Assembly: GCA_964057225.1 (NCBI GenBank)
Contig: OZ059895.1
Location: 10,912,001 to 10,976,000, forward strand
From: Auanema rhodensis
Taxonomy: Eukaryota; Animalia; Nematoda
Reading direction: 5' to 3'
Length of the DNA: 64,000 nt
A model generated the notes under the pieces. That model ran no database searches. It saw only the letters and a program-made list of their open reading frames with translations, and was not told where the DNA came from. Positions 145 through 23,731 of the stretch are shown piece after piece (position 1 is the stretch's first letter; each line of letters begins with the position of its first letter). Both the position numbers and the translations under genes were made by a program.

Positions 145-254
145 TTGTTAATTCAAAAGTGTTGTCCATTGAATTGAGTTCAAGTCTAGAAGGAGCTGTG
201 GCATATTGAACCGCACGTGCGCAATAAAAAAGTTACACTAGATCATTTTACTAA

Positions 255-565
255 ATGTATTCGTCTGAAATAGCGTCACTATTGCGATCTGTCCGCATCA
301 CTCGAAAACTATTCCTCGGTGTATTTAGCGCCGATACTCTACCCAAAACACGTCGAAAGAACTTTGCACTTGTTGTAAATACTGACACACACGATAAACC
401 GGGCACACATTGGCAAGTCATCTTTGTACGTAATGATCAAGCCTACTATTTCTGTAGCTTGGGATATAAAATGAACAAGTACATTCGTCATTATCTGGCC
501 AAATATAAAAATGTAAAAGTTAATACTTGCAAACCACAACGCATAATTGAATACACTTGTGGTGG
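255..565 (+). pseudogene. Maverick cysteine protease, C-terminally truncated at the duplication junction
   Basis: Identical to 5665-5975 up to TCGG, then reads out of frame into pPolB sequence (ORF 255-671). Confidence 0.88.
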
Positions 566-1233: not shown

Positions 1234-2456
1234 TTTTCAATATATTTGAATTTATAAATTTTATTATTGTCAAATAACTCGGACGAGTGTACAGTCGGTG
1301 AAATATCAAATACAAAAAATGTGTAGCCAGCTTTATACATTGCTGGTGTAATACCATTGGATGAATCTGTACGACCAAAGCCCAAACTCTCCAAGATGTC
1401 AATATATGCTGTGGCATAGGAAGAACGCCATTCTAAATTATAAGGGCGGGTAGGTATTACCCGATTGTTGAGCGTCAAGTATATATTTTTCAATTCAAAC
1501 GGTTTAAAGTTGAATGGCGAATGTTTAAAAGTACCATTATAGGCGTGTGCGCCGACAAGACCTACTACAACACGTTTCGGTGTATGCGACGTGAATAATA
1601 TGTTATTGGGTGAATCCAAACGGCCTCCTTCTATGAAATAAGATCGCATTTTCACTGACGTCATGGGGTAGTGTATTCGTTCCTTTACAAGTTTATCTTC
1701 TATAGCCATAGCTAATCCAGCGTTTAAATCAAACTCTTGAATAAGCAAGTGCACATCGTTGATATCTATTTTCAGGTTTGGAAACTCCTCCTTCATTGCA
1801 GCATCCTTGCTTTCATTATTCCATCCAAGTGTGTCAATTAAGAAATTATCACGGTTCGGATATGCAGTTAGCTCCATTTTTGAATAGTTTACAAACAGTC
1901 GTTCCTGATTGAATAAGTCGATATTGATGGGAGCAGCTATCTTACACAATATGCCATTTTTAACAAGCCCTTGTCGCGCTCTAAAGCCAGGACTGGCTGC
2001 ATTATCTATATATCTATCCGCATAATAGCCTGATATGGCAAGTTTGCTCTCTTTAACATCGTTGCTATACATTAGAATATTCTCAATATATGTTTTGTAG
2101 GCATGATTTACGGTAGAGTCATACACGCTAACATCACCAATTTTTAAATGATACGAGTGTATCAAACTGGCTGCAAATTGTTGGCATGGTGCAAAAACAA
2201 GGTTGTCTGGTACTGGATCACCGTTTGTGGTTACAATTTTGAATTTTACATTCAACCAACACCTTCTCAGATTAAGAAATGATTTGGAATTTTGGGCTAT
2301 AACAAATTCCCATGGTCCTTGAGGAAGAAAAGTATTTTTTAAAGGAACTTGTACAGTACAAGTGGATTCAACACCTAATGCCGACGCCGGTATGTCACTA
2401 TAATTAATATTAGGTAAAAGTGCTTGTGCTGATTTTGAATCTATAAATTTAGCCAT
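1221..2456 (-). CDS. Maverick major capsid protein (double jelly roll), probably C-terminally truncated
   Basis: 411 aa. Motifs GPWEFVI, YKTYIENIL, DLFNQER, PKRVVVGLV..AYNG..SPFNF, Y.AGYTFFVFDISP. The last ~15 aa come from AT-rich sequence at the pPolB 3' end. Confidence 0.88.
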   Translation of the reverse strand: MAKFIDSKSAQALLPNINYSDIPASALGVESTCTVQVPLKNTFLPQGPWEFVIAQNSKSFLNLRRCWLNVKFKIVTTNGDPVPDNLVFAPCQQFAASLIHSYHLKIGDVSVYDSTVNHAYKTYIENILMYSNDVKESKLAISGYYADRYIDNAASPGFRARQGLVKNGILCKIAAPINIDLFNQERLFVNYSKMELTAYPNRDNFLIDTLGWNNESKDAAMKEEFPNLKIDINDVHLLIQEFDLNAGLAMAIEDKLVKERIHYPMTSVKMRSYFIEGGRLDSPNNILFTSHTPKRVVVGLVGAHAYNGTFKHSPFNFKPFELKNIYLTLNNRVIPTRPYNLEWRSSYATAYIDILESLGFGRTDSSNGITPAMYKAGYTFFVFDISPTVHSSELFDNNKIYKFKYIENYSQ

Positions 2457-2849
2457 TTAAATACGATACGACCGCTCACGAGTTATGCACAGACGCTTAT
2501 GAGGTTTTGTTGTTTTGCGTCGTCGCCGCTTGCCCAAACCGGTAAGATCTCTTATAGCCTGCCGGCCGGTTGTTTTAAGAGTTTGCTTGATATTATCGCC
2601 CTTGAGCACCCCATCAACAATTTCATTGCTAGTTTTTAGCAATTGGCCGCCAAGAGGTGAATTTACAACTGGACTATTGCTTACAGCACTGGATAATGCA
2701 TTCCTTCCAGCATTGATGAGATTTTGGGCTGTAGGTGATTGAATAATGCGTGGTAAAAACGATGCCAAAGTTGCCAGTATACCACCCAGTCCATGACCTC
2801 TCTGCATACCACGTTGAAACATCATTCCACTAAATGGCGCCCCACCCAT
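2457..2849 (-). CDS. Maverick small virion core/membrane-active precursor protein (adenovirus pVI/pVII/pX-like)
   Basis: 130 aa. QRGHG/LGG followed by an amphipathic helix; LTGLG adenain-type site before a KRRRRK basic tail. Its stop abuts the MCP ATG (TAA-ATG). Confidence 0.7.
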   Translation of the reverse strand: MGGAPFSGMMFQRGMQRGHGLGGILATLASFLPRIIQSPTAQNLINAGRNALSSAVSNSPVVNSPLGGQLLKTSNEIVDGVLKGDNIKQTLKTTGRQAIRDLTGLGKRRRRKTTKPHKRLCITRERSYRI

Positions 2850-2959
2850 TTGTTAATTCAAAAGTGTTGTCCATTGAATTGAGTTCAAGTCTAGAAGGAG
2901 CTGTGGCATATTGAACCGCACGTGCGCAATACAAAAGTTACATTAGATCATTTTACTAA

Positions 2960-3270
2960 ATGTATTCGTCTGAAATAGCGTCACTATTGCGATCTGTCCG
3001 CATCACTCGAAAACTATTCCTCGGTGTATTTAGCGCCGATACTCTACCCAAAACACGTCGAAAGAACTTTGCACTTGTTGTAAATACTGACACACACGAT
3101 AAACCGGGCACACATTGGCAAGTCATCTTTGTACGTAATGATCAAGCCTACTATTTCTGTAGCTTGGGATATAAAATGAACAAGTACATTCGTCATTATC
3201 TGGCCAAATATAAAAATGTAAAAGTTAATACTTGCAAACCACAACGCATAATTGAATACACTTGTGGTGG
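2960..3270 (+). pseudogene. Maverick cysteine protease, truncated (copy 2)
   Basis: Copy of 255-565. Confidence 0.88.
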
Positions 3271-3938
3271 CGTACTGTACAACAGTGCCAGAAGACTCAC
3301 ACTTGGCACCAGCGCCATTTACAAATGTAGCCATAGCGGCTTATACAACCGCTCATGCAAGGCTACTATTGTATAAGGCAATGGAGAAAATTGGAAAGAA
3401 CTTGGTGCATACAGGTAATTTCATACTTTGTATACAATTTAACCGTACATCATTTAGACACCGATTCTCTAATTTATTTAAAATGCCTCGATCAGCCTGA
3501 TTCAATTGAGGATATGAAGGGTGAATGGTTGGGTAAACTAACTTCAGAAATACCCGATGGTTGGTCAATGACCAAATTTGTTTCACCAGCTGCAAAAGTG
3601 TATAGTTATGAGCTAGTAAATGCAGCTGGTCATGTCAAGTATATCACCAAGGCAAAGGGAGTGGTAAGTATAAAAATATATTATTGAGAAACTTTTTAAA
3701 ATTACAGACGTTGGACCACACGGCAGCCACCGTGGTAAACTATTAAAGTATGGAGCGATTGGTTCAAGGACTCGTGATGGATGGAGAAAAATTGGTTTTA
3801 AAAACCAAAACAACGTTATTAAAGAGGCAGCTTAGTTCCATATCCACGATGGACATGACAAAGAGTACCAAGGTCGTAATGGATAAACTTTGTTATCTAG
3901 ACGATTTTAGTACTTTACCCTATGGTTATTGTGAATAA
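3271..3938 (+). pseudogene. pPolB C-terminal fragment with introns 3415-3457 and 3664-3707 (copy 2)
   Basis: Copy of 566-1233. Confidence 0.88.
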
Positions 3939-5161
3939 TTTTCAATATATTTGAATTTATAAATTTTATTATTGTCAAATAACTCGGACGAGTGTACAGT
4001 CGGTGAAATATCAAATACAAAAAATGTGTAGCCAGCTTTATACATTGCTGGTGTAATACCATTGGATGAATCTGTACGACCAAAGCCCAAACTCTCCAAG
4101 ATGTCAATATATGCTGTGGCATAGGAAGAACGCCATTCTAAATTATAAGGGCGGGTAGGTATTACCCGATTGTTGAGCGTCAAGTATATATTTTTCAATT
4201 CAAACGGTTTAAAGTTGAATGGCGAATGTTTAAAAGTATCATTATAGGCGTGTGCGCCGACAAGACCTACTACAACACGTTTCGGTGTATGCGACGTGAA
4301 TAATATGTTATTGGGTGAATCCAAACGGCCTCCTTCTATGAAATAAGATCGCATTTTCACTGACGTCATGGGGTAGTGTATTCGTTCCTTTACAAGTTTA
4401 TCTTCTATAGCCATAGCTAATCCAGCGTTTAAATCAAACTCTTGAATAAGCAAGTGCACATCGTTGATATCTATTTTCAGGTTTGGAAACTCCTCCTTCA
4501 TTGCAGCATCCTTGCTTTCATTATTCCATCCAAGTGTGTCAATTAAGAAATTATCACGGTTCGGATATGCAGTTAGCTCCATTTTTGAATAGTTTACAAA
4601 CAGTCGTTCCTGATTGAATAAGTCGATATTGATGGGAGCAGCTATCTTACACAATATGCCATTTTTAACAAGCCCTTGTCGCGCTCTAAAGCCAGGACTG
4701 GCTGCATTATCTATATATCTATCCGCATAATAGCCTGATATGGCAAGTTTGCTCTCTTTAACATCGTTGCTATACATTAGAATATTCTCAATATATGTTT
4801 TGTAGGCATGATTTACGGTAGAGTCATACACGCTAACATCACCAATTTTTAAATGATACGAGTGTATCAAACTGGCTGCAAATTGTTGGCATGGTGCAAA
4901 AACAAGGTTGTCTGGTACTGGATCACCGTTTGTGGTTACAATTTTGAATTTTACATTCAACCAACACCTTCTCAGATTAAGAAATGATTTGGAATTTTGG
5001 GCTATAACAAATTCCCATGGTCCTTGAGGAAGAAAAGTATTTTTTAAAGGAACTTGTACAGTACAAGTGGATTCAACACCTAATGCCGACGCCGGTATGT
5101 CACTATAATTAATATTAGGTAAAAGTGCTTGTGCTGATTTTGAATCTATAAATTTAGCCAT
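3926..5161 (-). CDS. Maverick major capsid protein (copy 2), probably C-terminally truncated
   Basis: Copy of 1221-2456 with one G>D change. Confidence 0.88.
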   Translation of the reverse strand: MAKFIDSKSAQALLPNINYSDIPASALGVESTCTVQVPLKNTFLPQGPWEFVIAQNSKSFLNLRRCWLNVKFKIVTTNGDPVPDNLVFAPCQQFAASLIHSYHLKIGDVSVYDSTVNHAYKTYIENILMYSNDVKESKLAISGYYADRYIDNAASPGFRARQGLVKNGILCKIAAPINIDLFNQERLFVNYSKMELTAYPNRDNFLIDTLGWNNESKDAAMKEEFPNLKIDINDVHLLIQEFDLNAGLAMAIEDKLVKERIHYPMTSVKMRSYFIEGGRLDSPNNILFTSHTPKRVVVGLVGAHAYNDTFKHSPFNFKPFELKNIYLTLNNRVIPTRPYNLEWRSSYATAYIDILESLGFGRTDSSNGITPAMYKAGYTFFVFDISPTVHSSELFDNNKIYKFKYIENYSQ

Positions 5162-5554
5162 TTAAATACGATACGACCGCTCACGAGTTATGCACAGACG
5201 CTTATGAGGTTTTGTTGTTTTGCGTCGTCGCCGCTTGCCCAAACCGGTAAGATCTCTTATAGCCTGCCGGCCGGTTGTTTTAAGAGTTTGCTTGATATTA
5301 TCGCCCTTGAGCACCCCATCAACAATTTCATTGCTAGTTTTTAGCAATTGGCCGCCAAGAGGTGAATTTACAACTGGACTATTGCTTACAGCACTGGATA
5401 ATGCATTCCTTCCAGCATTGATGAGATTTTGGGCTGTAGGTGATTGAATAATGCGTGGTAAAAACGATGCCAAAGTTGCCAGTATACCACCCAGTCCATG
5501 ACCTCTCTGCATACCACGTTGAAACATCATTCCACTAAATGGCGCCCCACCCAT
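5162..5554 (-). CDS. Maverick small core-like precursor protein (copy 2)
   Basis: Identical translation to 2457-2849. Confidence 0.7.
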   Translation of the reverse strand: MGGAPFSGMMFQRGMQRGHGLGGILATLASFLPRIIQSPTAQNLINAGRNALSSAVSNSPVVNSPLGGQLLKTSNEIVDGVLKGDNIKQTLKTTGRQAIRDLTGLGKRRRRKTTKPHKRLCITRERSYRI

Positions 5555-5664
5555 TTGTTAATTCAAAAGTGTTGTCCATTGAATTGAGTTCAAGTCTAGA
5601 AGGAGCTGTGGCATATTGAACCGCACGTGCGCAATACAAAAGTTACATTAGATCATTTTACTAA

Positions 5665-6120
5665 ATGTATTCGTCTGAAATAGCGTCACTATTGCGATCT
5701 GTCCGCATCACTCGAAAACTATTCCTCGGTGTATTTAGCGCCGATACTCTACCCAAAACACGTCGAAAGAACTTTGCACTTGTTGTAAATACTGACACAC
5801 ACGATAAACCGGGCACACATTGGCAAGTCATCTTTGTACGTAATGATCAAGCCTACTATTTCTGTAGCTTGGGATATAAAATGAACAAGTACATTCGTCA
5901 TTATCTGGCCAAATATAAAAATGTAAAAGTTAATACTTGCAAACCACAACGCATAATTGAATACACTTGTGGTGGTTATGTTATATTTGTAATACTAATG
6001 TTGTCAGCTGGTAATACATTTGAAAGCATTTGTTCATTTTTTAAACTATTACAAAACGATGATGTCTTTATTAAAGCGTTTATGCATAAAGTATTCGACT
6101 ATAAATTATCTAGCATATGA
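5665..6120 (+). CDS. Maverick adenain-like (clan CE) cysteine maturation protease, full length
   Basis: 151 aa. FLGVFSAD.LP, VVNTD...PGTHW (His), PQ....TCG (Gln/Cys), C-terminal NDDVF. Confidence 0.9.
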   Translation: MYSSEIASLLRSVRITRKLFLGVFSADTLPKTRRKNFALVVNTDTHDKPGTHWQVIFVRNDQAYYFCSLGYKMNKYIRHYLAKYKNVKVNTCKPQRIIEYTCGGYVIFVILMLSAGNTFESICSFFKLLQNDDVFIKAFMHKVFDYKLSSI

Positions 6121-6330
6121 TCAACTTCGCCATTAAAACGTCACCTGCTACATTAGGTGGTCATTTATGAATATTCCCTGTCACTGTGAATTATGTATAA
6201 GATACACGTTGGAACAATCTGTGCCAACACCCCTGTACAAAAAGATTTTGAAACGTATTTCAGTGCCATTCATTAAAGAAATATCTCTGGGACTAGGCTT
6301 TTGTACAACACTAGTCATTATTCCACTCAT

Positions 6331-6339
6331 TATATAAAA
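6331..6339 (+). promoter_or_regulatory. TATA-box-like element upstream of the zinc-finger ORF
   Basis: TATATAAAA about 40 nt before the ATG at 6379. The AT-rich background lowers its significance. Confidence 0.3.
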
Positions 6340-6378
6340 GTGAGTTGACTGTGTGTGGTTGTTTTTTATTTTCCTCTA

Positions 6379-6843
6379 ATGGAACTTTTATGTAACAAGT
6401 ATTGTGTTACGTGCCAGGAAATATTTTCATCAGCCAAGCATTTTAGTGATCACGTATTGAAAAGACATGACGGGATTCAACCCGTATGTAACAGTTATAT
6501 CAGCAATGCTGACTTTATTCAAAAATATGGACATTTGGATGGTGTTCGTAGACGTTTGTGCCCTTATTGTAGTGAAACTTTTGGAACAAGATTCACTTGT
6601 CAGCGTCATATTCGGCGTCTTCATAATAGTAATGGAACGAATGGTAAAGATGGTGATGGAAATGATACCAGCGAACCCTCTGAAAAAACTGAGGAGTTTG
6701 TACAGTCAACCGAACCAAAACGATGCCGCTGCAATAGTAACCGAGAATATTCACAACACGAGCCGCGCATCGAACAAAACGGCGTTGAACTACCTTTTAA
6801 ATCTTCGAAAATCGTAATGTGGTCTTGTATAACTGTTGAATAA
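6379..6843 (+). CDS. Two-finger C2H2 zinc-finger protein (Maverick accessory gene)
   Basis: CVTC..F....HF..HVLKRH and CPYC..F.....CQRHIRRLH. Its 3' part overlaps the read-through tail of the minor capsid ORF. Confidence 0.7.
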   Translation: MELLCNKYCVTCQEIFSSAKHFSDHVLKRHDGIQPVCNSYISNADFIQKYGHLDGVRRRLCPYCSETFGTRFTCQRHIRRLHNSNGTNGKDGDGNDTSEPSEKTEEFVQSTEPKRCRCNSNREYSQHEPRIEQNGVELPFKSSKIVMWSCITVE

Positions 6844-7262
6844 AACATGTATTTCACATTTTTAACATGTAATGTAACAACTGTAGAACCATAATTAAAT
6901 TGCATAGGGCGGCCAAATTCATCTAAAATTTCAATACGTATAGTATCGAGTGTTTGCTTAGTGATTGGTACATAACGAATAGGATTAAATGTTTTGGCAA
7001 TCATTTTACCAAATTCAGTGGGAGGTGGTACAGGTAAACATGCAAGTATTTTAGCTTTCACATTACCGAGAATGGAATATTCTACAATATCACAATATAT
7101 ATACATTGTATTAATGTTGTTTGAAAAATCAATGGGGCGCCTGGCTATTAACGTGTCGTTGATAATTTTATTCTCAAAGCCAAGAAAATATGCGAGAGCA
7201 TCACCGAGTGTTGCATTCAACAATAGCCGCTTACTTGTTACAAACTCTATGCGTTGTACCAT
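6621..7262 (-). pseudogene. Maverick minor capsid (penton-like) protein, N-terminally truncated; homology spans ~6860-7262
   Basis: LAYFLGF..YIYCDIVEYSILG....ILACL..F.PIRYVP....DTIRIEILDEFG.P..F..GSTVVTLHV matches the conserved C-terminal half of the Polinton mCP. Confidence 0.8.
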
Positions 7263-7536
7263 TAAATGATGAGCGTTTAATAGTTATTCAAGGACCACCT
7301 GATCCGGATATAATAAAAGAGCAAAAGGGAGTAAACACCATACTAGTGCTGGATGATTTGATGAATTTTTTCTCATTGAATAAAGCGGCTAAAGAATTAC
7401 TCAACAACATTTTTACAGTGTGGGCACATCACTGGAATTTGGCAGTGTTTAATCTTGTGCAAGCTGCATTTCAGCTCGACAGGACCAGTCGAATTAATAG
7501 TACATATATAATACTGATGAAAAGTCATTCAGATAT
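7262..7536 (+). pseudogene. Maverick A32/FtsK-like packaging ATPase, internal fragment
   Basis: Walker B ILVLDDLM, FT..AHH.N and R.NSTYIIL motifs in ORF 7190-7600. Walker A is absent. Confidence 0.85.
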
Positions 7537-7800
7537 GTGTTCCATTGATTTACCCATAAGAGGTACGGTGACGATATGTGTTCCATTGATTTACCCATAA
7601 GAGGTACGGTGAACAAAATGGTTCGCCTAGATAAACAACAAACTTTTTAAAAGTTAAATTAATAATTATAAACTATAATAAACACAATCTATAAACAATG
7701 TAAACGAATAAAATTAAAAAATAAATATATAAAATATATCTTATCGAATTAACCTTCGATATGAGTTCCATTGATTAACCCATAAGAGGTACGGTGAACA
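7532..7800 (+). repeat. ~40-bp direct repeat, 3 copies (7532, 7573, 7758)
   Basis: gatatgtgttccattgatttacccataagaggtacggtga occurs twice in tandem, with a diverged third copy. Confidence 0.85.
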
Positions 7801-8117: not shown

Positions 8118-8225
8118 AAAGTATATTATTGACAGCTGACGCCGAAAATATGATTTTGACAGCTGACGCCCCCAAAAGTATGTTTTTAGCAGCTGACGCC
8201 CTCGAAAGTATGTTTTTAGCAACTG
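8118..8225 (+). repeat. ~27-30-bp minisatellite, 3-4 copies
   Basis: cagctgacgcc(n)aaa(g)tatg(t/a)tttt repeated. Confidence 0.8.
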
Positions 8226-8269
8226 TTTGGGGGCGTGGTTAGTAAATTCGGCATGGCTCTCTACTGGGA

Positions 8270-9950
8270 TTCTCCGTACACAGAACACATAATTATGCAT
8301 TTACACAGAGAATGCATGCACCAAGGGCGAGATTTTGTTCTAACACTCTTGCGTCAAAAATACTTTTTAAGTAGACCATCAAGCATAGTCAGATCAGTTC
8401 TCAAAACATGCACAATCTGCAATAGATACAACGCTTTGCCGTTTGGAACGTCCTTAATGCCAGCATTGCCTAAGGATAGAGTAATTCTAACAAAACCATT
8501 CATGAGTACAGGTTGTGACTTATTAGGTCCAATAACCATAAAGGATGGTAAAAAGATATTTATATGTCTGTTTACTTGTTTAGCTATAAGAGCTATACAC
8601 CTAGAAATAGTTTTTGACCAATCAACAAAGGCATTCTTAAACGCTTTTGAAAGGTTCATTGGAAGAAGAGGTATTCCAGAAATAATACGAAGTGATAATG
8701 GAGGAAACTTCTTATTAAGTGTTAAAGTAATAGAGTTTTACACAGAAAACCATGAATCAAAAAATGAAAAAACATTAACCAATTATCTTGCCGAAAAGAA
8801 TATTAAATGGTACTTCAACACACCACAGGCTCCATGGAAAGGTGGAACATGGGAAAGACTAGTAGGACTAACAAAGTTAGCACTATACAAAACAATTGGA
8901 AATAAATTAATGTCATTTGATGATATACATACAGTAATTGTAAAAATCGAAACAATTTTAAATACTCGCCGCTTACACATCCGAACCCATCCAACCTGAA
9001 CATTTTGCCTATCAGACCTTGTGATTTTTTAAACCGTTACATCAGGTTTACACTTTTTTCAAACGTATCGAATACCCGAATTTATGATAAAACTATCAAT
9101 AGCAGGACAATACAAACTATAGAGCAAGCCATTGAAGCAATAGAGTTATCTAACGATGTAACTCAACTATTCTGGAAAAAATTCTATTCCGAGTATTTAA
9201 TTTATCTTAGAGATATTTACAAACACAACAGAAAACGACCTGCAACGAACGCTAAGAAACCACAAGAAGGAGAAGTTATTATAATACAGAATGATGATTC
9301 AAGTAGAGGTAAATGGAAATTAGGACGCATAATAGAACTGATAAAAAGTGCAGATGGGGAAGTTAGATCTGCAAAACTAATAACTGGCACTGGTCTTATA
9401 ACAACTCGTTCATTAAACCACATATATCCACTACAAGTGAAAAACGCAGAAACAGCACCGTTTGCGTCAGAACCTCACTCAATGAAATACAATAAAAAAT
9501 ACCAAGTGAATTCATTTTTAATCACCGGGACGGTAAAACAAAAAGGAAATCGGGTTGAAAATGTTGAAAATATTGAACACCTTGAAAACACTCAAGAAAG
9601 TGAACGAAATAACGATGTAATACCACTCGACATCTATACACCCAACATGAATATCATGAACGAAGCAGGAAACGAAAATAATTCTAATGATACGAACTTA
9701 GAGCAAGCGGAAGATCAAACAAATGAGATAACTCTTCAAACCAAAAACGAATCCACACTATCAAATCTGAATAGATGGTTCAAACAAAAACACAAGGTAG
9801 ACAAGCAGCTGTAAGAAGTTATTTTAAGAAAAATAAAATGAAAACGATTGTTCCAAAAGTAGCTTTTCTTGGAATAATTCCAACGGTTGAGGCTACATGC
9901 CAATCCTCTGAATTGCTAACAGCGGAAGCATTATATTTCCCTCAATGTAT
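8270..9950 (+). mobile_element. BEL/Pao (Belpaoviridae) LTR retrotransposon fragment: integrase plus C-terminal domain, disrupted
   Basis: HHCC (H..CMHQG..CTIC), PF..TGCDLLGP, IRSDNG.NF, PWKGG.WERLVG, and a DUF5641-like FWKKF..EYL..LR..WKLGRI....DGEVRSA block. Frame break at ~8999. Confidence 0.92.
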
Positions 9951-12836: not shown

Positions 12837-13249
12837 CGTTCCATGGTAGTTCCCCAGGGTTCCGGCTGGCTAACCACATGGAATTATTTTCTTTTTTTCG
12901 AAATATAAATGATAAAGAGTATAGAGAGAAAGGTTTATTCATGATAAAGTATACAAATTACAATAATAAAAGTTACATAATGATTCCTAGTCGCAGCCCA
13001 AAGGACTCGTAAGGAAACCTTATATAGTTTTCCTTACGAGCATAAAAAGTGGTTATATCAGGTCCGCGGAACTTGGTTCCGCTTGAATTGGGCTTTCTTT
13101 AATTAAACTTAATATGAAAAAGTGTTCGTTCATTATTGCATTGAATTCCTGTTTCTCAAATGTAGCGTCAGCTATTTGTTTTTATAATATTCCATTTTAT
13201 ACGCGATTGACGTTGTCAATCGCTCTACTTATAGGACACGTATGGAACA
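12837..13249 (-). repeat. 3' LTR (413 bp)
   Basis: Direct repeat of 23150-23543 (~6 substitutions and one 19-bp indel by eye). Minus-strand ends are TGTTCCAT...ATGGAACG. Confidence 0.96.
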
Positions 13250-13451: not shown

Positions 13452-14052
13452 TTAGTCTTCTTCATAATACTGGTGTATCTCTGGTAATGGTGATGATCCT
13501 AGGTCGTGGAGAAGATCCATAGTCTTGTTGCATAAATCCGTTTTTCTTTCCATTTCTTCTTGAGTGGTTGCTGGTGATGCCAGAAATATTTGTAGAGCAT
13601 TTATAATGCTTTTTCTTGCCTCTGTGGATGGCAGTTCGCTGCAATATTGCAGGCTCCATTCTTGGTAGGCCAATTGGGTCTCGGCAATAATCCAGTTTGG
13701 TGTCTGCTGTTTGTGAATCGCAACTAGGTGAATAACCTAGTTGGTCCCTTAGTTCAGCAATGGCATCTCGGATGACTCCTGCTATGCTGACCCATGGTCC
13801 TATGCAGTGATCAACTTCCGATAGTCGATCCTTGTCGTATTGGTAACATAGGATTTTGAGCGTTTCAGTACTAGTATTCGCTCTTGTTAGTCCTTGAACT
13901 AACTCCTTCAGGATCTTCTCTTTCCTGGGGCGGTTGGCGATGGTATTGGCGCCTAGCTGCTTCAATTCTCTTACTAATAGTTGAATTGAAAGCCATCTCT
14001 TTTTGGCCATCATGAGGGGAATTTCGACGGCTTCAGGAAATTGGGTGGACAT
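13452..14052 (-). CDS. Accessory ORF of unknown function between pol and the 3' LTR (probably one ~200-aa helical protein split by a frameshift near 13680)
   Basis: ORF 13462-14052 and overlapping ORF 13452-13673, sense to the element, no recognisable motif. Confidence 0.55.
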
Positions 14053-14451
14053 TGTTATCTTTGTTACTGTTTTTCTGTCCTTTTATTCTTTTAAAACTAG
14101 GTCGGTCTGTTCCTTCCTTTTTTGTCGCCTCCTTTTTGACCAGTTAGGTGAAAAAGTGATGAAGATTGTTAATTGAAACTTTGCAGTGATTTTTGAAAGA
14201 TTCCAAGTATGACTGTTGTACTGTTGGTGCCACGAAGTTTGGGTCCGGGATCTGACTCTTCGAAACTCTCTTCTTCGGCTCTGTTACTGGTATGGTGCTG
14301 TGATACCTTAACGGCACATGATAAGGCTTTGCTGGCGTTGTAGGAAAATTATCTTCTAATCCCAATGCCAATTTAAGTGCTGAACTCCATTTCTTAATTG
14401 TGGGTGGCTCCTTCTTTCGTTCCTCATACAATTCTTCCCTTGCGTTTTCTT

Positions 14452-15900
14452 CTATTTCCTCTGATAGTTTTTGAAAAGCCTTGATCGTCTGGTTTTGTTC
14501 TCTAGACTCTGTTGTTGACGTTTCTTCTGTGCGTCCTGATTTGGACTGATTTGTGAACTTTCCGCAAGTTCTATGTCTGTTTCCAAAGTATTTTCGTTGA
14601 TATTTGTTGTCGACGGGCTGTTTCGTGTAAATGGTTGTTCGTTTTGATAGAACGTTTCTTCTTCACTGTCCGAATCAGATAAATGAGTTCTGATCATCAG
14701 TGTAATTTCTGCCGTTGGGTTGTCATCCGGAGGGAAAAATCTGATATTATTTTTGTGAGCCTTCATCGTTTTTCCTTCACTATCTGCTAACGTAACGTTA
14801 TTTCCAATTATCTTCTTGATGATATATGGTCCATCGCTCGTCTTTTGCAATTTGTTCGTTGGTTTTGTTCGTTTGACCAATGCCCTATCGTCTACGTAGA
14901 TCTCTCTTTCTTCCGTTCTGTGTTTCTCGTCATATTTCTTTTTCATCCTTTCATTACTTAATTCAATACTTTTCTGAATCTTCTCATGTAGATCTGGGGT
15001 GTTCTTGATTGTGGCTTATGGTGTTTCTAGGGTCTTATCCATTGGTAAACGAGCTGTTTGTCTAAATAGACAATCGTAGGGTGGTGTGCGAGTTGTGGCG
15101 TTTGGTAGTCGATTGATCGTAAAGACAATTTTGGGTAAAATACTGTCCCAATTATCTTGATCGGCATTAACGTAAGAAGTTAATGCTTCTTCCAGCGTTC
15201 TATGTAGTCGTTCTATTTGACCATTTGCGTTCTTGTAGTATGGCATAGTAGTGTGATGTTCCGATTTAAAATTATCGCACATGCTTTTGAATTCGTGTGA
15301 GACAAAGTTTGATCCATTGTCTGTGATGATTTTCTTTGGGGGTCCGAAGACATAGAATAAGTGTGTCATAATAGCTGATACTAATTCTTCTGATGTCTGA
15401 CGAATTAATGGTATCGCTATAATCCATTTGGAAAATGCGTCCTGTATAGATAAAATGTATCTATTATCCTTTGCAGTTCTAGGTAATGGTCCTAGTATGT
15501 CCATGTGAACTCGTTCTCATGGATGTGTCACTGTTGGGAAGTTTCTCATTGGTTCGACTGTGGCTTCATGTGGGTTATTTTTCCTCTTTGCACAGTCGAG
15601 ACATCTGTTCACATTTCTTGTGATATCATCCTGTATTCCTGTCCAAGTGTACCGTCGCAAAATGGAGTCTTGAGTCTTATTGATTCCAAGATGTGCTCCG
15701 AGAATGGGGTCTTTGTGGAATTTCTCAATAATTGGTGTGGTAATTGATGAGTCACTTGGCAGAATAGCTCGTGGAGTTTGTAGAGCTGATTTGGGTTCAG
15801 CGTATAGAACATCATTCAAAACAATGTATCTATCCGTTATTTGTGTCCCAGCATTGTTATTTGACAGCTTCTCCTTAGTTTCTTTGATCCATTCTGTGTC
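14452..15900 (-). pseudogene. Gypsy integrase (HHCC, DDE core, GPY/F module, long hydrophilic tail)
   Basis: H.....AHLG..C.DC; MDILGP..QDAFSK..ITDNGSNF..NGQIERLH; DGPYIIKK. Confidence 0.95.
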
Positions 15901-15999: not shown

Positions 16000-17330
16000 A
16001 ATTTCGTCCTCAAAGTACCTTGATAAAGCGTCGCAAACGCTATTAAGGCGTCCTGGGCGATAGATAATTTCAATGTCATACTCTTGGAGTACTATTTGAA
16101 ATTTGGCTAATCTTCCAATAAGATCTTTTCTTGTCATAAGACTGGTTAAAGGTCTATGATCGGTAATAATTTTGATCGGTGCCCCTAGGATGTAGGTACG
16201 AAATTGGTGAACCGCAAAAGTTAGAGCTAAGGCTTCAATCTCAATGGGGGGATAGTTCCTTTCTGCTCTGTTCAGTTTACGGCTAGCGAAAGCTATTGGG
16301 TGCAGTGGTTCTCGATCGTCCGCGGATTGCAATAAAACTGCTCCTACTGCAATAATGCTTCCGTCGCTTTCGACTACATATGGCCGTTTTGCTCTAGGCG
16401 CTTGGAGAACTGGTGCTTCACAAAGTGCTTTCTTTAGGTGTTGAAAAGATTTTTCTTCTTTGTCTCCCCATGTGAAGGTTTTATCCTTTTTTGTGAGGTC
16501 ATAAAGCCATAAAGCGGTGATGCAATGCCTGCGGCATTTCTAATGAATCTCCGAGTAGTTTACAACTCCCATGAATGCTCGAACTCCTGTGATTGATTTT
16601 GGTCTTGGATAATCTTGGATTGCTTTTACTTTTTGAGGGTCTGGTTTCATTCCTTCGTGTCCAACAATGAATCCTAGGAATTTGACTTCTTGTTGTCCAA
16701 AGGTACATTTCTTAAGCTTGATTTTTAATCCTAGCTCTGCTGATGCGTTCAGTACTTCGTCGATATCTTGTAAATGTTTCGTCGTTGATTCCGATATGAG
16801 AAGTAGATCGTCGAGATAGACAAAAAGCTTGCATCGTACGTGTTGTTGTAAATATCGTACAGCATTTTGGAATGTGTGTGGAGCTCCGCAGAGTCCCATC
16901 GGCATTCTGCAGTATTGATAAGTTCCGCTCGTAGTAGTGAATGCGGTGAGGTGTCTATCTTCTGATCTAAGAGGGATTTGAAAGAATCCAGATACTAGAT
17001 CAAAGTTACTGAAGATAGGTGCTCCGGCTGCTAGGTCCAAGATGTCTTGAATGTTAGATATAACGTAGATTTGTTTTTGCGTTATTGCGTTGAGTGCTCG
17101 AAAATCAGTCACAAATCTGTTATTCCTTGTTCTAACATTTCCTCCACTTGTTTTTCTACTTCTTCTTGTTGTGATAGAGGTATTCTGTACGTGATCTTGA
17201 AAGATGGAACTTTTCCTTCGATGATCGGGATGCTATGTTCAACTGGTCCTCTGAAAAGACCGATATTTCGATCCTCGTTCAAGAAAGCTTCCTTATTTCT
17301 AAGTACTATTTCCTTTAATTGTTGTCTTTC
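16000..17330 (-). pseudogene. Gypsy reverse transcriptase and RNase H
   Basis: DFRALN, DLVSGFFQI, TAF.T..G.YQY.RMPMGL, YLDD; RH motifs PIAFASRKL..AERNY..IE.EALA..TDHRPL. About 20 codons appear deleted near 17115. Confidence 0.96.
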
Positions 17331-17770
17331 TAATTGAGTGAAGATGGAATTTGAGACATCTAGATCTTTTATGAAATCATCTGGGAAGAATGGTAGTTGA
17401 TCTTCCCATCTTGCTTCTGGTGGTACATATTGTCCTTTTTGCTCTTCCGTGTTTTTGGGGATAGCATAAGCTGTTTCAATGCCTTGGTTTGCCTGGACTT
17501 CGATTGTATCCGAAGAGATATTTGTAGCAAATATCTGGACTCCATATCCTGTTGGGGTGAAAGTTGTAGGCGCAAAACTCATTTTTCCTGCTCGTTGTGA
17601 GCTTCTAATGAAAGCTTGTTCGAATGAGGCGGATTCATTTACTTCCAAAGTTAGAGATCTTGTTTCTCCGGGGTAAAATTGTTTAGTTTCCAGACTAACA
17701 ACTTGTGTAATTGTGTGTTTTTCTGTTCATGCATTATAGTTTTAAGCTAGAGGTACCGTGGTATCTCCAA

Positions 17771-18125
17771 TCAGCAATGAATTTTGCAGAGGGCGTAAGG
17801 AGGTGAGGATTCCTTCTCTGTTGAGTGCTTCAAAAAATCTATTCCAAGCAATATTGGTGCTGGGCAATGATTGTCAGAAGATATCAATATTTTGTGGTCA
17901 ATTTCGGTCTTTCCAATTATTATTGACAGTCTTGTATATCCTAGGAAGGAAAATCGAGACTTGTTTGCTACAACAGCTGTAGTTTTCTCAGCTACCATTT
18001 TTGCTGCCGGTAATTGATTGAAAGTGCTCTCTTTCATATATGAAATTGATGCACCTGTATCCCATAATGCAGTAAAAACTTGGTTGTAAATTGATATGGG
18101 TAGGAATGGTAATCGGGATCCCCCA
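17771..18125 (-). CDS. Retropepsin aspartic protease (C-terminal part of the 528-aa Env-PR ORF 17771-19357)
   Basis: ALWDTGASISYM (DTG at 18053-18061) and ILLGIDFL. Confidence 0.93.
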
Positions 18126-18346
18126 ATGTAGTTTATCTTTGATTCTTTAATAGCGTACCTGGGCAGATAGGTTAGCAGATCGCTATCTGTTAATGGTGCA
18201 TCGGGATCATAGCGTGAAAGTGGAGCATGGTAGTTGTCTTGTGTCGCTCTTCTTAACGGCAGAAGTTCGGTCTCTTGGGCTGGATGTTCTCTTCTTTCTT
18301 CGTCATCTTCTTCAATATAATTGATGGGAATTCTTGTGACACGTGC

Positions 18347-21198
18347 GTATATTTTGATTCCGTAAATCAGCGCGGTGATGAGTCGTATCATCACGATGAT
18401 TGCGCCGATTGTGGCATGTGTTCTTAATAGCCAGGCCTTGAAAGTTTCTCCAATAAAAGCGAAGAAGCTGGAAATCCCTTCGTTTGCCGTGTTTCGGACG
18501 ATGTCTCCCACTACGATAGGAATTGTTATGGCATTTTCAAGGATGTTGAGTGGATTCAGACTGATTCCTTTCTTGTTGTTAAATATAGGTTTCAATCTTT
18601 CTGGCAAAGTGGCTTGTAGAGAGGCTAGACTGGATCCGTATGAAATAGCGAGTTCAAACAGGAATGAAGATTCCGTGAGGTTGGCATATATGTTGGAGTT
18701 GTTGAATTTTATGTGATCAATTTTGATCGACGTGAGTTCGTCCGCAAATGATAGGTTCGTCACATTTAATTTTGTGTTTTCCTTCATCCATTGGTCGTCT
18801 AATTTATATGGATCCGTTGTAGCCATCATGCAGTCGATTCGTCTGCCCATTGGTGAAATATCACGTGTTCCAGGTATTAAAAACAGTTCTCCATGATGTT
18901 CTGTATCTACTGGTGTTTCCATGTAACATGTTCCGTTTCTTTTGTGATCCGAGTAGATTTTTGTTACGTGGATAGGTGTGCAAGGCATTACGTAGATAAG
19001 GTGTTCAGCAACGAATTTAGCTGATATATCCTGACGTCTAAGCATTGTGCGGATACCAATAGTTGGGTTGATTTGCAGAATGGCCCACCACGTAAGGAGT
19101 TGTTTGTTTTGCATCCTACAGATGTCCTTTTTCGTTTTTTGAAACGCCTTTAAAATTTGTTCTTCTAGTTGCGAGGTTGAATATTGTAGATGGGATTGTG
19201 TATCCAGTTGACGTAATTGTTCATCATATTTCTGGATGATATCATGTCTTGTACGAAGAAAATTAGCGTGTGCTTGCTGTCCTATGTGAGATTGGACTTC
19301 TCTTGCTTGTTGAGGTGTTGTGGCGGCTCGTTTGGTTGTTGTCCTTGGCTCTATCACTGTTGAAGAGATTTGCGGAATTTCTGTTCGCGTTACAAGCTGT
19401 TTTGGTAAAGAAAATGGCGTTGTTGTAGCTTCATAGTAGTGATATCTTCTTGGAGTGGTTGTAGAGCTTGGTGATAATGTTCTGGGAGTGTGGAAAGGTT
19501 TGGGAGTAATTCGAAAAGTTGTTGTTGTAGTCGCGTGCGTAGTAGAGCTTGTAGTGCTTGCGGAAGTCGTGGTAGTCGTAGTCGTTGTTGTTGAATACGT
19601 GAGGGAGTCGATTAATTCAAGATATTTCTGTTGAAATCTCTCGCTTTCTTCCTGTGAAATAGTTTTAGTCGTTGGTGTACCACGTGGCAGTCCAAAGTTC
19701 TAAACTAGTCCTTTAAAGATGATTGCGTAATTAGGAAAAATAATCCTTGGACTACTTGATTCCTCTTCAAATGTATTTCACTTTCTGCTCTCTTTTTCGC
19801 GTTCTTCTGTTGATATATGTAGCAGACGATTATGTGATGCTATATAGTCAATGAAGTTTAATACTTCGTCGATTTGTGTGTAAAACAAAGTGTCCATTCT
19901 AGGAGTTGTTCTTCTCGACATCCTAGGTGGGTTTAGTTTTAAATATATATTCTTCTAATGAAGGAATTGTTTCTCCTGTTGCTAATACTGCGGGAGTTTG
20001 TGCGATTTCAAATGCAATGTCTCTCGCTCGCTGTAAGTAGTCTCCTGTGCGTTTTTCCAACTTATCGGCGAACTCCTTAATCGTGATTTGTTTACTGAGT
20101 TTTTCTGTGAGCTCAGATGGTAGGAGATGCGCGATAGCAATTTCTGTTGCTAGGAGAATTTCTGCTTTAGCCAGCGCATGTAGAATGGCGATATTAGTGT
20201 CGTTGTAGTTGTACCATAATAGTGTTTCCTTGATCGCGATTGCGTCTAACTTGAGGAATTTTGTATGTCCTATGTGAGTACTGGAAGTTTTCAGATAGTC
20301 TATGAGACTGTAAGAATTATCCAATCTTTTCCGGTTGCGATACTTCTGATACATTGGAATAATTCCTGTAGAGCTGTCCGTAAGACGTAATGATGGATAT
20401 ATGGCGATATTGAAAAAGCGTGTAGGGTATTCTTGTGGCGCTTTCCTTTTCTGTCGTCTTGGAGTCTCTTTAGGTGGTATATGAATGTATGTACCACTAT
20501 TCGTTGCATGTATATCCTTTCCTAAACATCGAGTTGCTATGTTAACCGTTTTCTGTTTTTCCTAAGGAGCTGAAGTCGCATTCGTGATGGTCGTGAGGTG
20601 GTGTCCAAACGATTATGGCATTGTGCGTTGTACAAGTTCCTGCTTTCTTTGCACATCCTTCCGTGTTGAGAAAAAGGTCTGATATGATGATATCGTCATG
20701 TAAACAAGTCATCATTCCTCTTTCTAACGTTAATCTTGGAGTTGTGGTGCAAGCTGTAGACCAAAATGAGTAAGACTGATTGTTTAAAGGTAAAGGTGCC
20801 TTAAATAGTCCTGGAGCTGTACGTACAAGATTCGTATCCATATGTCTTCTTTCTTGTATAGCTTTCTTACATTCCTTAAGAGTTGCGGCTTCGACGTAAA
20901 GTAGAGTGATATTGTTTTCTCTAATGAACAGTCTATCGTGAGCACATGTTCTGTAGATTTCTTTGGAGCATTTCCAAGTCTCCCATTCCTTGTAATGCAT
21001 GTTTTCTGCGAATTATTCGACGTTAGTAATTTGAACTCCATCCTTGTGTATATTTTCTGAGCATAAAGTTGGCCGAGGGGGTTCGAGAAAGATGCCTCCT
21101 CGTGTTCCGGTGCATAGATGGTAGGTGTTGTCTGCGTGACAAGGAAGTATTGTCAGTGCCATGATGGAAAGGAAGAGAGGTGTGAATAGAAGTTTCTT
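18347..21198 (-). pseudogene. Envelope glycoprotein, class III fusogen-like (herpes gB / mononegaviral G type), with signal peptide, mucin-like tract and TM
   Basis: Signal peptide KKLLFTPLFLSIMALTILPCHA (21198-21133); Cys-rich ectodomain; gB domain III-like block DICRMQNKQLLTWWAILQINPT..RRQDISAKF..VMPCTPI (19126-18971); N-x-S/T sequons; TM ~18412-18347. Confidence 0.85.
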
Positions 21199-21199
21199 G

Positions 21200-22770
21200 T
21201 TGCTCGTGCGGGGTAATTCATTGTTAACTTGGTTAACATGGAATCGTACTGATGGGCTTCTTGTGCGATTTCTGTAGCGCGAATTAGGTCCATATGATTC
21301 ATGGTGATCTCTGTTCTGGTATCTTCAATCGTACTGGTTTCCGCGATGACAGTTGTTGTTGTATCTGTTATCATAACGGTCGTTATACCTATTATTTCTG
21401 TGTGGGCTACGGTAGTTGTTTGGTCCTCTTGAGCGTGGTCTGTTATTTCTGTTCCTGTCGTTGTAGTGATCGTATCTTCCTGTTCTTCTTTCATCGTTAT
21501 GACGGTATCCTCCTCGTCTTTGGTGCCATGGTTCTTGAGGTCTTTGTGGATGTGAGGAATTGTCGTGTGGCCTGGATGATAGATGTGGTGCCGGTCCTCT
21601 ATGAATTTTATCACGCTGTGGAACTCTCATGTGATTGATGTGCTCGTTATTGATATTCAAATCATCTAGTTCATCGGTTAAGTTGTTGATGAAGGAAGAG
21701 GGGTCCTCATCTGCTTCAACGGTTTCAGCGATAGTGATGGCTGATTCAAAGGTGGTTGGGCTTCGATTATTGACGTGCGTACGTAGTTGTTTGTAATCCA
21801 CCGAGGAAAGCTACACGTAATATACGTTCATCAGCATCGGTGTTCATATCGCTTGCTTCATAAGCCAGATTTCGACAGCGTTGTGCAAAATGGTTGACAG
21901 TTTCACTCTCTCCTTGCTTCATGTGAGTGAGTCTGGTGAACGCGGCATCTCGTTTCTCTTGAGGTTGAAGTTTGAGAGACAAAATGCGCTTTACGTTATT
22001 CCATCCTTGACGTATTTCGTCCGGAGTTATGCAACGTAAAGCATCGGCTGCTTTGTCCGTCCCCAACAATAGATTGAGGTGCGACAGACGCTTAGCCATG
22101 GGTACTTGCAACGCGTCAAAATAACCTTCCAATCTCGTCATGTAGAGGTTAAAAGGTACTGCTCCATCATACAAGGTGGGTTTATGGTGGCGAATAGAAA
22201 CAGTGTTCGTAGGTAGCATGCGGAAATTAGAGTTGTTTTGGGTTTGATCATTGGAGTTTGGGTGGTCATCCATCCGGTCAGTCATCTGAGCGATTTTTCT
22301 CTTCTCTGCAACATTCAAATTGAAATTGGTGGTTACTTCCGACGGAGAAGATACAAGAGAAGAAGATTGCCCATGTAATGATTGATCGGATGAAGAGGGA
22401 GAATTTCGAGGAAGAGGAGAAGAAAGAATAACAGTATTTGGGTATGAATATAATATTTGTGAATAATCTTTACGAGGGGAAGTATTTGTGCTAACATTAC
22501 TAGAGCTTTTGATAACATTAGAAGTGCGTTTTGGAGTTTGTTTGCTAATAGACGCTTTAATTTTACTAAGAGTAATAGCGTGGCGAGAAGTTTTAATAGC
22601 TGTTGTGCCTATTTTCTTTGCGGGGGTACCCGGTATAGCGGGTGGTTTCTTTGCAGCAGTAGATCGGCGCTTCGTGTCCGGCTCATAAACATTTGGAGGT
22701 CCTCTTTTTCTTTGATTCCGCTCGAGTACTGGCTCGACGTGCGTATCATTGCGCTCTGTGGATTCGTTTT
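21200..22770 (-). pseudogene. Gag (basic S/T/K-rich N-terminus, capsid domain, R/N/Y/D-rich NC-like tail without a zinc knuckle)
   Basis: P.LYDG..F..Y..R.E.YF and MKQGESETVNHFAQR (MHR-like). Frameshift ~21790, stop at 21325. Confidence 0.85.
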
Positions 22771-23130: not shown

Positions 23131-23149
23131 AATCTCGGTGGAACCTCCA
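23131..23149 (-). promoter_or_regulatory. Primer binding site complementary to the tRNA-Gln 3' end
   Basis: Minus strand TGGAGGTTCCACCGAGATT immediately follows the 5' LTR. The + strand AATCTCGGTGGAACCTCCA equals the metazoan tRNA-Gln 3' end including CCA. Confidence 0.88.
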
Positions 23150-23543
23150 CGTTCCATGGTGGTTCCCCAGGGTTCCGGCTGGCTAACCACATGGAATTAT
23201 TTTCTTTTCTTCCAAATATAAATGATAAAGAGTATAGAGAGAAAGGTTTATTCATGATAAAGTATACAAATTACAATAATAAAAGTTACATAATGATTCC
23301 TAGTCGCAGCCCAAAGGACTCGTAAGGAAACCTTATATAGTTTTCCTTACGAGCATAAAAAGTGGTTATATCAGGTCCGCGGAACTTGGTTCCGCTTGAA
23401 TTGGGCTTTCTTTCATTAAACTTAATATGAAAAAGTGTTCGTTCATTATTGCATTGAATTCCTGTTTCTCAAATGTAGCATCAGCTATTTGTTTTTATAA
23501 TATTCCGTTTTATAAGCTCTACTTATAGGACACGTATGGAACA
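23150..23543 (-). repeat. 5' LTR (394 bp)
   Basis: Direct repeat of 12837-13249, adjacent to the PBS. Confidence 0.96.
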
Positions 23544-23612
23544 TAACATGAAATTGGAAAAAAAAACAATAACGAGAATAAGTATGTAAATCATTGAATA
23601 TCAGATATTTTC

Positions 23613-23731
23613 GCTTACGACCATACCACGTTGAAAGTACGCCATCCCGTCCGATCTGGCAAGTCAAGCAACGTTGGGCCCGGTAAGTACTTGGATTGGA
23701 GACGGCTTGGGAATCCCGGGTGCCGTAAGCT
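23613..23731 (+). rRNA. 5S rRNA variant (2 substitutions)
   Basis: 119-nt match starting 69 bp from the proviral end. Confidence 0.9.

What the first reader, a model, noticed from the sequence alone, without database searches (positions are those of the whole stretch)
17771..22770. Endogenous retrovirus with env embedded in the polyprotein: Gag-signal peptide-fusogen-TM-protease-Pol
The Gag C-terminal frame (21801-21325) continues past one TGA (likely from CGA) straight into a signal peptide (21198-21133) and the Cys-rich ectodomain; 21801, 21198 and 21000 are the same frame. At the other end one unbroken 528-aa ORF holds the fusogen C-terminal half, the TM helix and the DTG protease. The implied topology is cytosolic Gag, luminal Env and cytosolic PR-RT-IN from one translation, more like a flavi/alphavirus polyprotein than gag-pol-env. 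It would force equimolar Gag:Env:Pol unless otherwise regulated. I recall this gag-env-pro-pol order being described for nematode NERV metaviruses, so the architecture is probably rare rather than new; this family and host may be new.
Basis: partly seen in the sequence, partly recalled or inferred. Interest (0 to 1): 0.82.

Follow-up and report, generated by a model that had tools for sequence, protein, structure and literature searches.

The report
Decayed Gag-Env-Pol nematode-type retroelement
This is a broken copy of a virus-like jumping gene, likely from a nematode, in which a membrane-fusion gene sits between the capsid and enzyme genes and is likely made with them as one long protein; the layout is real but already published for nematode elements.

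Summary
The layout is real. A 10.7-kb Ty3/gypsy LTR element (minus strand, 23543-12837; LTRs match at 388 of 394 aligned bases, 4-bp target duplication, tRNA-Gln-type primer site) reads Gag, signal peptide, class III (gB/nyami-chu-like) fusogen, TM, protease, RT, RNase H, integrase, 3' extra ORFs. This copy has 12 breaks, not one. Near-identical copies in other sequencing runs differ from it at 9 of the 12, including both stops and the frame change around the Gag-Env junction. Relatives, nematode where named, hold Gag, Env and Pol in one predicted protein with an internal signal peptide. A model of one relative matches gB and Gag capsid folds. This is the published nematode GAG-ENV-POL kind (Chary and Hayashi, PMC13524379; Sacco 2022, not readable here), and the scan found the same layout before on other DNA. 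Topology, cleavage and infectivity are inferred. Extras: a ~460-aa insert in Env, an internally deleted form far deeper in the runs than env, and insertion just upstream of a 5S rRNA gene. New member of a known kind.

The parts
23150..23543 (-). 5' LTR (394 nt; TG...CG ends)
   Evidence: 388 matches, 6 mismatches and a 19-column gap against the 3' LTR
23544..23547 (-). 4-bp target-site duplication, left copy; the right copy abuts the 3' LTR at 12836-12833
   Evidence: flanks; loose ends at 23544 show the empty-site spacer
23132..23149 (-). primer-binding site, tRNA-Gln type
   Evidence: its first 12 nt equal the PBS listed as Gln for Clat_errantivirus_4 and Ctro_errantivirus_1 in PMC13524379 supplement 1
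21770..22285 (-). Gag N-terminal part with capsid domain (22060-21791); first Met at 22285; frame break near 21.79 kb
   Evidence: Pfam Retrotrans_gag E 4e-7
21199..21790 (-). Gag C-terminal Arg/Asn/Tyr/Asp-rich region, no CCHC knuckle; stop at 21327-21325
21133..21198 (-). predicted internal signal peptide (basic residues, hydrophobic core, small residues at the end)
   Evidence: hydropathy peak 21192-21136; equivalent segment in 23 of 27 relatives
20545..21132 (-). Env N-terminal half, gB domain I/II-like, Cys-rich; stop at 21015-21013; frame break near 20.55 kb
   Evidence: 28% identity over 196 aa to P0004, E 4e-19; that part of the P0004 model aligns to HCMV gB, Z 10.9, rmsd 4.8 over 209 residues; no Pfam hit on its own
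19304..20544 (-). long insert in Env: RQKR furin-like site (20456), a domain shared with P0013 and P0001, then a 98-aa stretch 57% Thr/Ser/Pro; breaks near 19.94 kb, 19780 and 19702
18413..19303 (-). Env C-terminal half (central helix, domain IV-like)
   Evidence: Pfam Monjiviricetes_fusion E 1.7e-16 and Glycoprotein_B E 1.1e-6, the latter below its curated cut-off; 33% to P0004
18356..18412 (-). predicted TM helix, followed by basic residues
   Evidence: hydropathy 2.15
17825..18097 (-). aspartyl protease (DTG at 18061), in frame with the Env C-terminal half; frame break near 17.83 kb
   Evidence: Pfam gag-asp_proteas E 1.1e-7
16078..17824 (-). linker, RT (YLDD; 17127-16663) and RNase H (16470-16078); breaks near 17.12 kb and at 16542
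   Evidence: Pfam RVT_1 E 3.2e-32, RT_RNaseH_2 E 8.4e-33
14452..15750 (-). integrase: H2C2 zinc domain, core, GPY tail; stops at 15519 and 15018; ORF end at 14454
   Evidence: Pfam Integrase_H2C2 E 3.1e-14, rve E 8.7e-16
13452..14662 (-). 3' extra ORFs (14662-14147; 14052-13465 with an overlapping frame 13736-13455); no relatives found
12837..13249 (-). 3' LTR (413 nt)
23613..23731 (+). host 5S rRNA gene; the element sits 65-69 nt upstream of it, head to head
   Evidence: Rfam RF00001, 104.8 bits

Best explanation
The window holds a decayed copy of a Ty3/gypsy LTR element, likely from a nematode, whose gB-like class III fusogen lies between Gag and protease, and whose working form is likely one Gag-Env-PR-RT-RH-IN polyprotein of roughly 2,600 residues. 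Shown: the LTRs, target duplication, primer site, domain order, and the breaks in this copy. Inferred steps: (1) One transcript from the 5' LTR is translated from Gag onward. (2) The internal signal peptide after the basic Gag tail sends Env into the ER lumen and is cut by signal peptidase, leaving Gag on the cytosolic face. (3) The TM stops transfer, so PR-RT-IN hangs on the cytosolic tail of Env, about 100 residues from the membrane. (4) Env trimers gather these tails, which would let protease dimerise, release the enzymes and place them at the budding site without a Gag-Pol fusion. (5) A furin-type cut in the domain II-III linker matures Env. (6) Enveloped particles pass from soma to germline. 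This copy can do none of it: it has 12 breaks. Shorter env-less relatives would be moved in trans.
For: Domain order by Pfam. 16 of 24 long relatives scanned have a Pfam env hit followed by a Pol domain in one protein; 5 of 24 have a Gag-family hit before env, and 3 of these run on to integrase (P0091, P0110, P0138). P0091 and P0138 fill about 90% of their contigs, leaving little room for spliced-out breaks. In 4 of 4 runs laid, a contig differs from the window inside both stops at the Gag-Env junction and at the Gag frame change. One search shows differences at the breaks near 20.55 kb (4 of 4 runs), 19.94 kb (4 of 4), 17.83 kb (3 of 4), 17.12 kb (2 of 4), 15519 and 15018 (4 of 4). Seven stops are seen against about 6.6 expected if the 1.7% divergence arose neutrally in this copy. 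Signal-like segment in 23 of 27 relatives with 200 or more upstream residues; more K/R before than after it in 21 of 27; TM in 27 of 36, with a DTG-like motif after it in 15. The model of P0004 matches gB (Foldseek E 7.6e-14), nyami/xinmo/chu glycoproteins (E 2e-19), gB domain IV through residues from both halves (Z 10.0, rmsd 3.8, 140 aligned) and PEG10 capsid (Z 13.2). RT groups with nematode elements (78% to Auanema P0001; clade 99/95).
Against: No listed contig spans the whole element, and 3 of 12 breaks (19780, 19702, 16542) were not visible in the cut tables. In pol, most contigs laid are deeper, more divergent relatives, not necessarily the env-bearing copy. The relatives are gene predictions. 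The window's own Env half folded badly without an alignment (pLDDT 35), so the fold evidence is from a relative 28-33% identical. Whole-model TM-scores were low (0.10-0.20) and whole-ectodomain rmsd about 41 A. The K/R bias before the signal peptide is not independent of Gag's basic tail. 4 of 27 relatives missed the signal threshold. A furin-type motif lies in the linker in only 17 of 36 relatives. Steps 1-6 are untested.
Confidence: 0.88

Rival explanations
1. One ORF in the DNA, but Gag and Pol are mostly made from spliced or recoded messages that skip Env, giving Gag in excess and a normal cytosolic Gag-Pol; the full polyprotein is a minor product.
For: Capsid assembly usually needs Gag in excess (general knowledge). 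Env-less and partly deleted forms exist in the DNA runs (joints).
Against: The joints seen are in runs taken as DNA, and the main one removes Gag too. The signal peptide and TM are kept in place across distant relatives. Single-ORF Ty3/gypsy elements such as Tf1 reach Gag excess by degrading Pol products (recalled, from no call).
Confidence: 0.2
2. Env is kept but makes no infectious particle; it serves as a membrane anchor or acts within the cell, and the family spreads intracellularly.
For: Env-bearing contigs are shallow while LTR and deleted forms are deep. PMC13524379 section 11 says the route of transmission is unknown for gB-type elements.
Against: The full fusogen fold and its cysteines are conserved across relatives at about 20-30% identity, more than an anchor needs.
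Confidence: 0.15
3. Env is a separate viral glycoprotein gene that landed in frame inside this one element.
For: The insert region 20544-19304 has few relatives.
Against: No repeat ends flank env. The same Gag-signal-Env-TM-protease order recurs in many relatives, and both Env halves contribute to one gB-like domain IV in the model.
Confidence: 0.02
4. The breaks are assembly errors and this locus is intact in the animal.
For: None of the four runs laid shows the window's letters at the three junction breaks.
Against: No run holds more than half of the window's words, as expected of a different, 1.7% diverged copy. The two LTRs differ by 1.5%. The number of stops fits neutral decay, and two breaks are stretches of tens of bases.
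Confidence: 0.08

Closest known systems
Nematoda GAG-ENV-POL HSV/gB-type 'errantiviruses' (Chary and Hayashi, eLife 2026, PMC13524379), e.g. Clat_errantivirus_4 and Ctro_errantivirus_1
   Same: Gene order, gB-type Env, LTR size range, tRNA-Gln primer site (8 of 36 nematode rows are Gln; 2 have the same 12-mer). By eye, the Clat_4 Env row shares its cysteine pattern with the window.
   Different: This copy is broken. Its RT is nearest to Auanema P0001, a host not among the 36 rows. Its Env linker (~460 aa) is at the top of the 82-459 aa range in 36 relatives. The main text has no 'polyprotein', 'fused', 'in frame', 'mucin' or 'non-autonomous'; figures were not seen.
NERVs (Sacco et al. 2022, J Gen Virol, doi 10.1099/jgv.0.001739)
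   Same: Cited in PMC13524379 as nematode ERVs with ENV and POL flipped. Recalled from its abstract, from no call: one continuous gag-env-pro-pol ORF, Nyamiviridae-like env, extra ORFs.
   Different: Could not be read, so whether it already covers topology, the insert or deleted derivatives is unknown.
Class III fusogens: herpesvirus gB; nyami-, xinmo- and chuvirus glycoproteins
   Same: Fold of the relative P0004; Pfam PF24664 and PF00606 in the window.
   Different: Here the fusogen is the middle of a retroelement polyprotein, with a long insert at the domain II-III linker.
BEL/Pao elements with envelope genes (Atlas-type; Anakin-type gB-like env)
   Same: Env of viral origin on an LTR element; P0067 is such a protein with a homologous env.
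   Different: There env follows pol, and the Pao domains (Peptidase_A17, DUF1759, DUF5641) are absent from this element.

Membership tests
Ty3/gypsy (Metaviridae) LTR element | paired LTRs with target-site duplication and a tRNA primer site | tested here: met
Ty3/gypsy (Metaviridae) LTR element | Pol order PR-RT-RNase H-IN, with GPY/F integrase tail | tested here: met
Ty3/gypsy (Metaviridae) LTR element | Ty3-type capsid | tested here: met
   Retrotrans_gag E 4e-7; relative P0004 Ty3_capsid E 5.8e-9 and PEG10 capsid fold
Ty3/gypsy (Metaviridae) LTR element | RT branches within reference Metaviridae | not tested
   the tree held only env-bearing relatives, no named references or outgroup
Nematode GAG-ENV-POL elements (NERV / gB-type errantivirus) | order gag-env-pro-pol | tested here: met
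Nematode GAG-ENV-POL elements (NERV / gB-type errantivirus) | HSV/gB-type (class III) Env between signal peptide and TM | tested here: met
   fold from relative P0004
Nematode GAG-ENV-POL elements (NERV / gB-type errantivirus) | one continuous ORF (feature recalled from the Sacco abstract) | tested here: inconclusive
   this copy has 12 breaks; other copies differ at 9 of them and 3 were not visible; relatives are continuous as predicted proteins
Nematode GAG-ENV-POL elements (NERV / gB-type errantivirus) | chromadorean nematode host | tested here: inconclusive
Nematode GAG-ENV-POL elements (NERV / gB-type errantivirus) | RT groups with the published elements | not tested
Retroviridae (endogenous retrovirus in the strict sense) | class I env downstream of pol | tested here: not met
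   env is class III-like and upstream of protease
BEL/Pao (Belpaoviridae) | Pao domains Peptidase_A17, DUF1759, DUF5641 | tested here: not met
   absent from all 13 pieces of the element, present in P0067
Infectious env-bearing element | enveloped particles, cell-to-cell transfer | not testable with these tools
   needs bench work

The most novel reading that the evidence does not exclude
This family works as a helper-and-defective system. A rare Gag-Env-Pol master delivers its enzymes to the particle on the cytosolic tail of Env, not through a Gag-Pol fusion, and carries a lineage-specific ~460-aa furin-released shield or receptor domain (helical plus mucin-like) in its class III fusogen. It mobilises a 10- to 35-fold more abundant LTR derivative that has lost gag, env and pol but keeps the 3' extra gene, and it targets the spacer just upstream of 5S rRNA genes, as Ty3 targets Pol III genes.
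Probability: 0.15. Interest if true: 0.6.

Novelty: new member of a known kind. Interest (0 to 1): 0.24.

Why it matters
The layout is already in print, so this adds a family, not a concept. What stays open is how a retroelement with no cytosolic Gag-Pol fusion packages its enzymes and gets enough Gag, and whether gB-type Env makes these elements infectious; PMC13524379 calls the entry route unknown. The conserved internal signal peptide, TM and ~100-residue spacing to the protease give a concrete, testable topology. This broken copy is a poor subject for those tests. The deep internally deleted form and the 5S-adjacent site are the leads worth a look in a full genome.

Tried and rejected
No whole genome is held for the window, so copy number and other insertion sites could not be counted. 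Folding the window's Env C-terminal half alone gave pLDDT 35 and was not searched. Word-indexed searches with the Env N-terminal half and the 3' extra ORF found nothing; Atlas searches with the Env insert and the extra ORF gave only sub-0.9 hits. A metagenome scan with RT gave 5 distant loci, not used. No RNA holder was listed. 5S targeting: one search listed no LTR-flank junction of other copies (22 loose ends not shown), so it is neither supported nor excluded; a paper search on it gave 11 listings, none read. Paper searches for 'gag-env-pro-pol' and a five-term query gave 0; 'gag-env-pol' plus retrotransposon listed only PMC13524379; some searches were seen as listings only. Sacco 2022 is not held. 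A 70-protein alignment failed; a 46-protein one was used. Earlier-findings look-ups by sequence, by place and by the first word set found nothing. Rejected: nested env insertion, BEL/Pao, Retroviridae.
Full report
Setting. The element lies on the minus strand from 23543 to 12837, inside a short array of 5S rRNA genes (9 Rfam matches in 1-27000). Its LTRs are 394 and 413 nt with 388 matches, 6 mismatches and one 19-column gap, and a 4-bp duplication flanks them. The primer site follows the 5' LTR at once. Its 12-mer equals the tRNA-Gln site listed for two Caenorhabditis elements in supplement 1 of PMC13524379. No whole genome is held.

Observation. One stop-free ORF holds the fusogen C-terminal half, the TM and the DTG protease, but it is 642 codons stop to stop; 528 is the count from a GTG. 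The copy is much more broken than reported: five frame changes (near 21.79, 20.55, 19.94, 17.83 and 17.12 kb) and seven stops (21327, 21015, 19780, 19702, 16542, 15519, 15018). Pfam on 13 pieces gives, in order, Retrotrans_gag, Monjiviricetes_fusion with Glycoprotein_B (the latter below its cut-off), aspartyl protease, RVT_1, RNase H, Integrase_H2C2 and rve.

Is one ORF the family's true state? First, other copies. Eleven of 14 listed runs hold the stretch or part of it, none more than half of its words, which fits a related copy at about 98% identity. I laid 5 of them, 4 per call. In one search (X1, X2, X7, X9) all four have a contig that differs from the window inside both stops at the Gag-Env junction and at the Gag frame change. 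In one search (X4, X2, X7, X9) they differ at 20.55 kb and 19.94 kb (4 of 4), 17.83 kb (3 of 4), 17.12 kb (2 of 4), and inside the stops at 15519 and 15018 (4 of 4). The tables were cut, so 19780, 19702 and 16542 were not seen; no listed contig spans the element; and in pol most of the depth comes from more divergent relatives. Seven stops match the 6.6 expected if the 1.7% divergence arose neutrally in this copy, so decay is a better reading than assembly error.

Second, relatives. A search with the Env C-terminal half found 183 proteins at E<=0.001, 150 listed. I scanned 24 long ones: 16 have a Pfam env hit followed by a Pol domain, 3 more have Pol domains after the env match but no Pfam env hit, 4 have env without Pol, and 1 (P0067) is a BEL/Pao protein with env last. 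Five have a Gag-family hit before env, three of them continuing to integrase. Two of those three fill about 90% of their contigs. All 10 relatives with names are rhabditid nematodes. An RT tree of 23 rows (4 short hits dropped) puts the window with Auanema P0001 (78%), Diploscapter P0002, C. japonica P0011 and the unnamed P0006 at 99/95; it held no reference Metaviridae, so it does not test family membership.

Fusogen. The window's own half folded poorly without an alignment. I folded a natural relative, P0004 (C. brenneri), which matches the two window halves at 28% and 33%, with a 46-sequence alignment: mean pLDDT 70, pTM 0.41. Foldseek's listed PDB hits are all herpesvirus gB (best E 7.6e-14); its viral hits are nyami-, xinmo-, chu- and rhabdo-like glycoproteins and gB (best E 2e-19). 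Whole-model TM-scores are low. VIA-align matches residues 362-574 to HCMV gB (Z 10.9, rmsd 4.8, 209 aligned), matches gB domain IV through both halves (Z 10.0, rmsd 3.8, 140 aligned), and matches the Gag part to PEG10 capsid (Z 13.2). The variable linker lies between the domain I/II match and the long central helix. It is 82-459 aa in 36 relatives and about 460 aa here; 17 of 36 carry an R-x-K/R-R motif in it, as the window does. Part of the window's insert is shared only with P0013 and P0001, both Auanema, among the 152 proteins held, and it ends in a 57% Thr/Ser/Pro stretch.

Mechanism. Among 36 relatives matching both Env halves, 27 have 200 or more residues upstream (P0149 left out, env last); 23 of these have a strong hydrophobic segment just before the first Env cysteine, with more K/R before than after it in 21 and fewer in 2. 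A TM is present in 27 of 36, with a DTG-like motif after it in 15, mostly 70-110 residues away. These are hydropathy scans, not SignalP. They support cytosolic Gag, luminal Env and cytosolic Pol from one chain. I infer that signal peptidase frees Env from Gag, that Pol rides on the Env tail, and that Env trimers bring protease monomers together. Gag excess could come from turnover of the downstream products, as recalled for Tf1, or from spliced messages; neither was tested.

Known work. PMC13524379 (seen: abstract, outline, passages, section 5 part 1 of 2, sections 11 and 14, all 36 Nematoda rows of supplement 1, the first 15 Nematoda rows of supplement 2; no figures) states that elements of Nematoda, Bryozoa and Platyhelminthes carry gB-type ENV in the order GAG-ENV-POL, and cites Sacco 2022 for nematode ERVs with ENV and POL flipped. 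Its main text does not use 'polyprotein', 'fused' or 'in frame'. Sacco 2022 I saw only as a citation; that it reports one continuous gag-env-pro-pol ORF is recall. Its text and supplements, and the unread supplements of the eLife paper, may already cover the topology and the insert. The scan noted the same layout twice before in other genomes.

Side results. Contigs join 14470 to 22398-22401 in X4, X7 and X9, and X2 has loose ends at both places. This form lacks gag, env and pol but keeps the leader and the 3' extra ORFs. Contig depth over the kept 5' part is 11-34 times that over env; the tool warns that depth is no copy number, so this only suggests an abundant non-autonomous form. The insertion lies 65-69 nt upstream of a 5S gene. 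One site in a very high-copy spacer cannot show targeting.

Verdict. Interest 0.24.

Noticed in passing
window 25.6-64 kb (and inverted at 24.8-25.6 kb): A 399-bp satellite of 96 copies is the local 530-bp 5S unit with most of the 5S gene lost: it keeps about the first 33 nt of 5S plus the spacer (about 91% identity) and is inverted relative to the 5S array.
   Followed up: partly
window 14470 joined to 22398-22401, in runs X4, X7, X9: Internally deleted LTR derivative lacking gag, env and pol but keeping the leader and 3' extra ORFs; its contigs are much deeper than env contigs. Smaller pol deletions also appear (16161/16846, 17168/17235, 17731/17838).
   Followed up: partly
window 23544-23613 and 12837: The element sits 65-69 nt upstream of a 5S rRNA gene, head to head; Pol III-gene targeting is possible but untested.
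   Followed up: partly
window 1-7600: Three tandem 2705-bp copies (99% identical) with an adenovirus-type protease (Peptidase_C5, E 0.0023, below cut-off), polymerase-like fragments and a 411-aa ORF without a Pfam hit; by eye Maverick/Polinton-like. A C2H2 zinc-finger ORF lies at 6349-6843.
   Followed up: partly
window 8220-9814: BEL/Pao integrase remnant: Integrase_H2C2, rve and DUF5641.
   Followed up: partly
window 14662-13452: 3' extra ORFs of the element with no relatives found; other copies show small length differences here, near 13.71 kb among others.
   Followed up: partly
window 23150 and 12837: Both LTRs end in CG, not the usual CA, and no purine-rich tract is evident just before the 3' LTR.
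   Followed up: no
P0138, residues 500-555: A relative carries an RRM domain between Gag and Env (Pfam E 6.2e-7).
   Followed up: no
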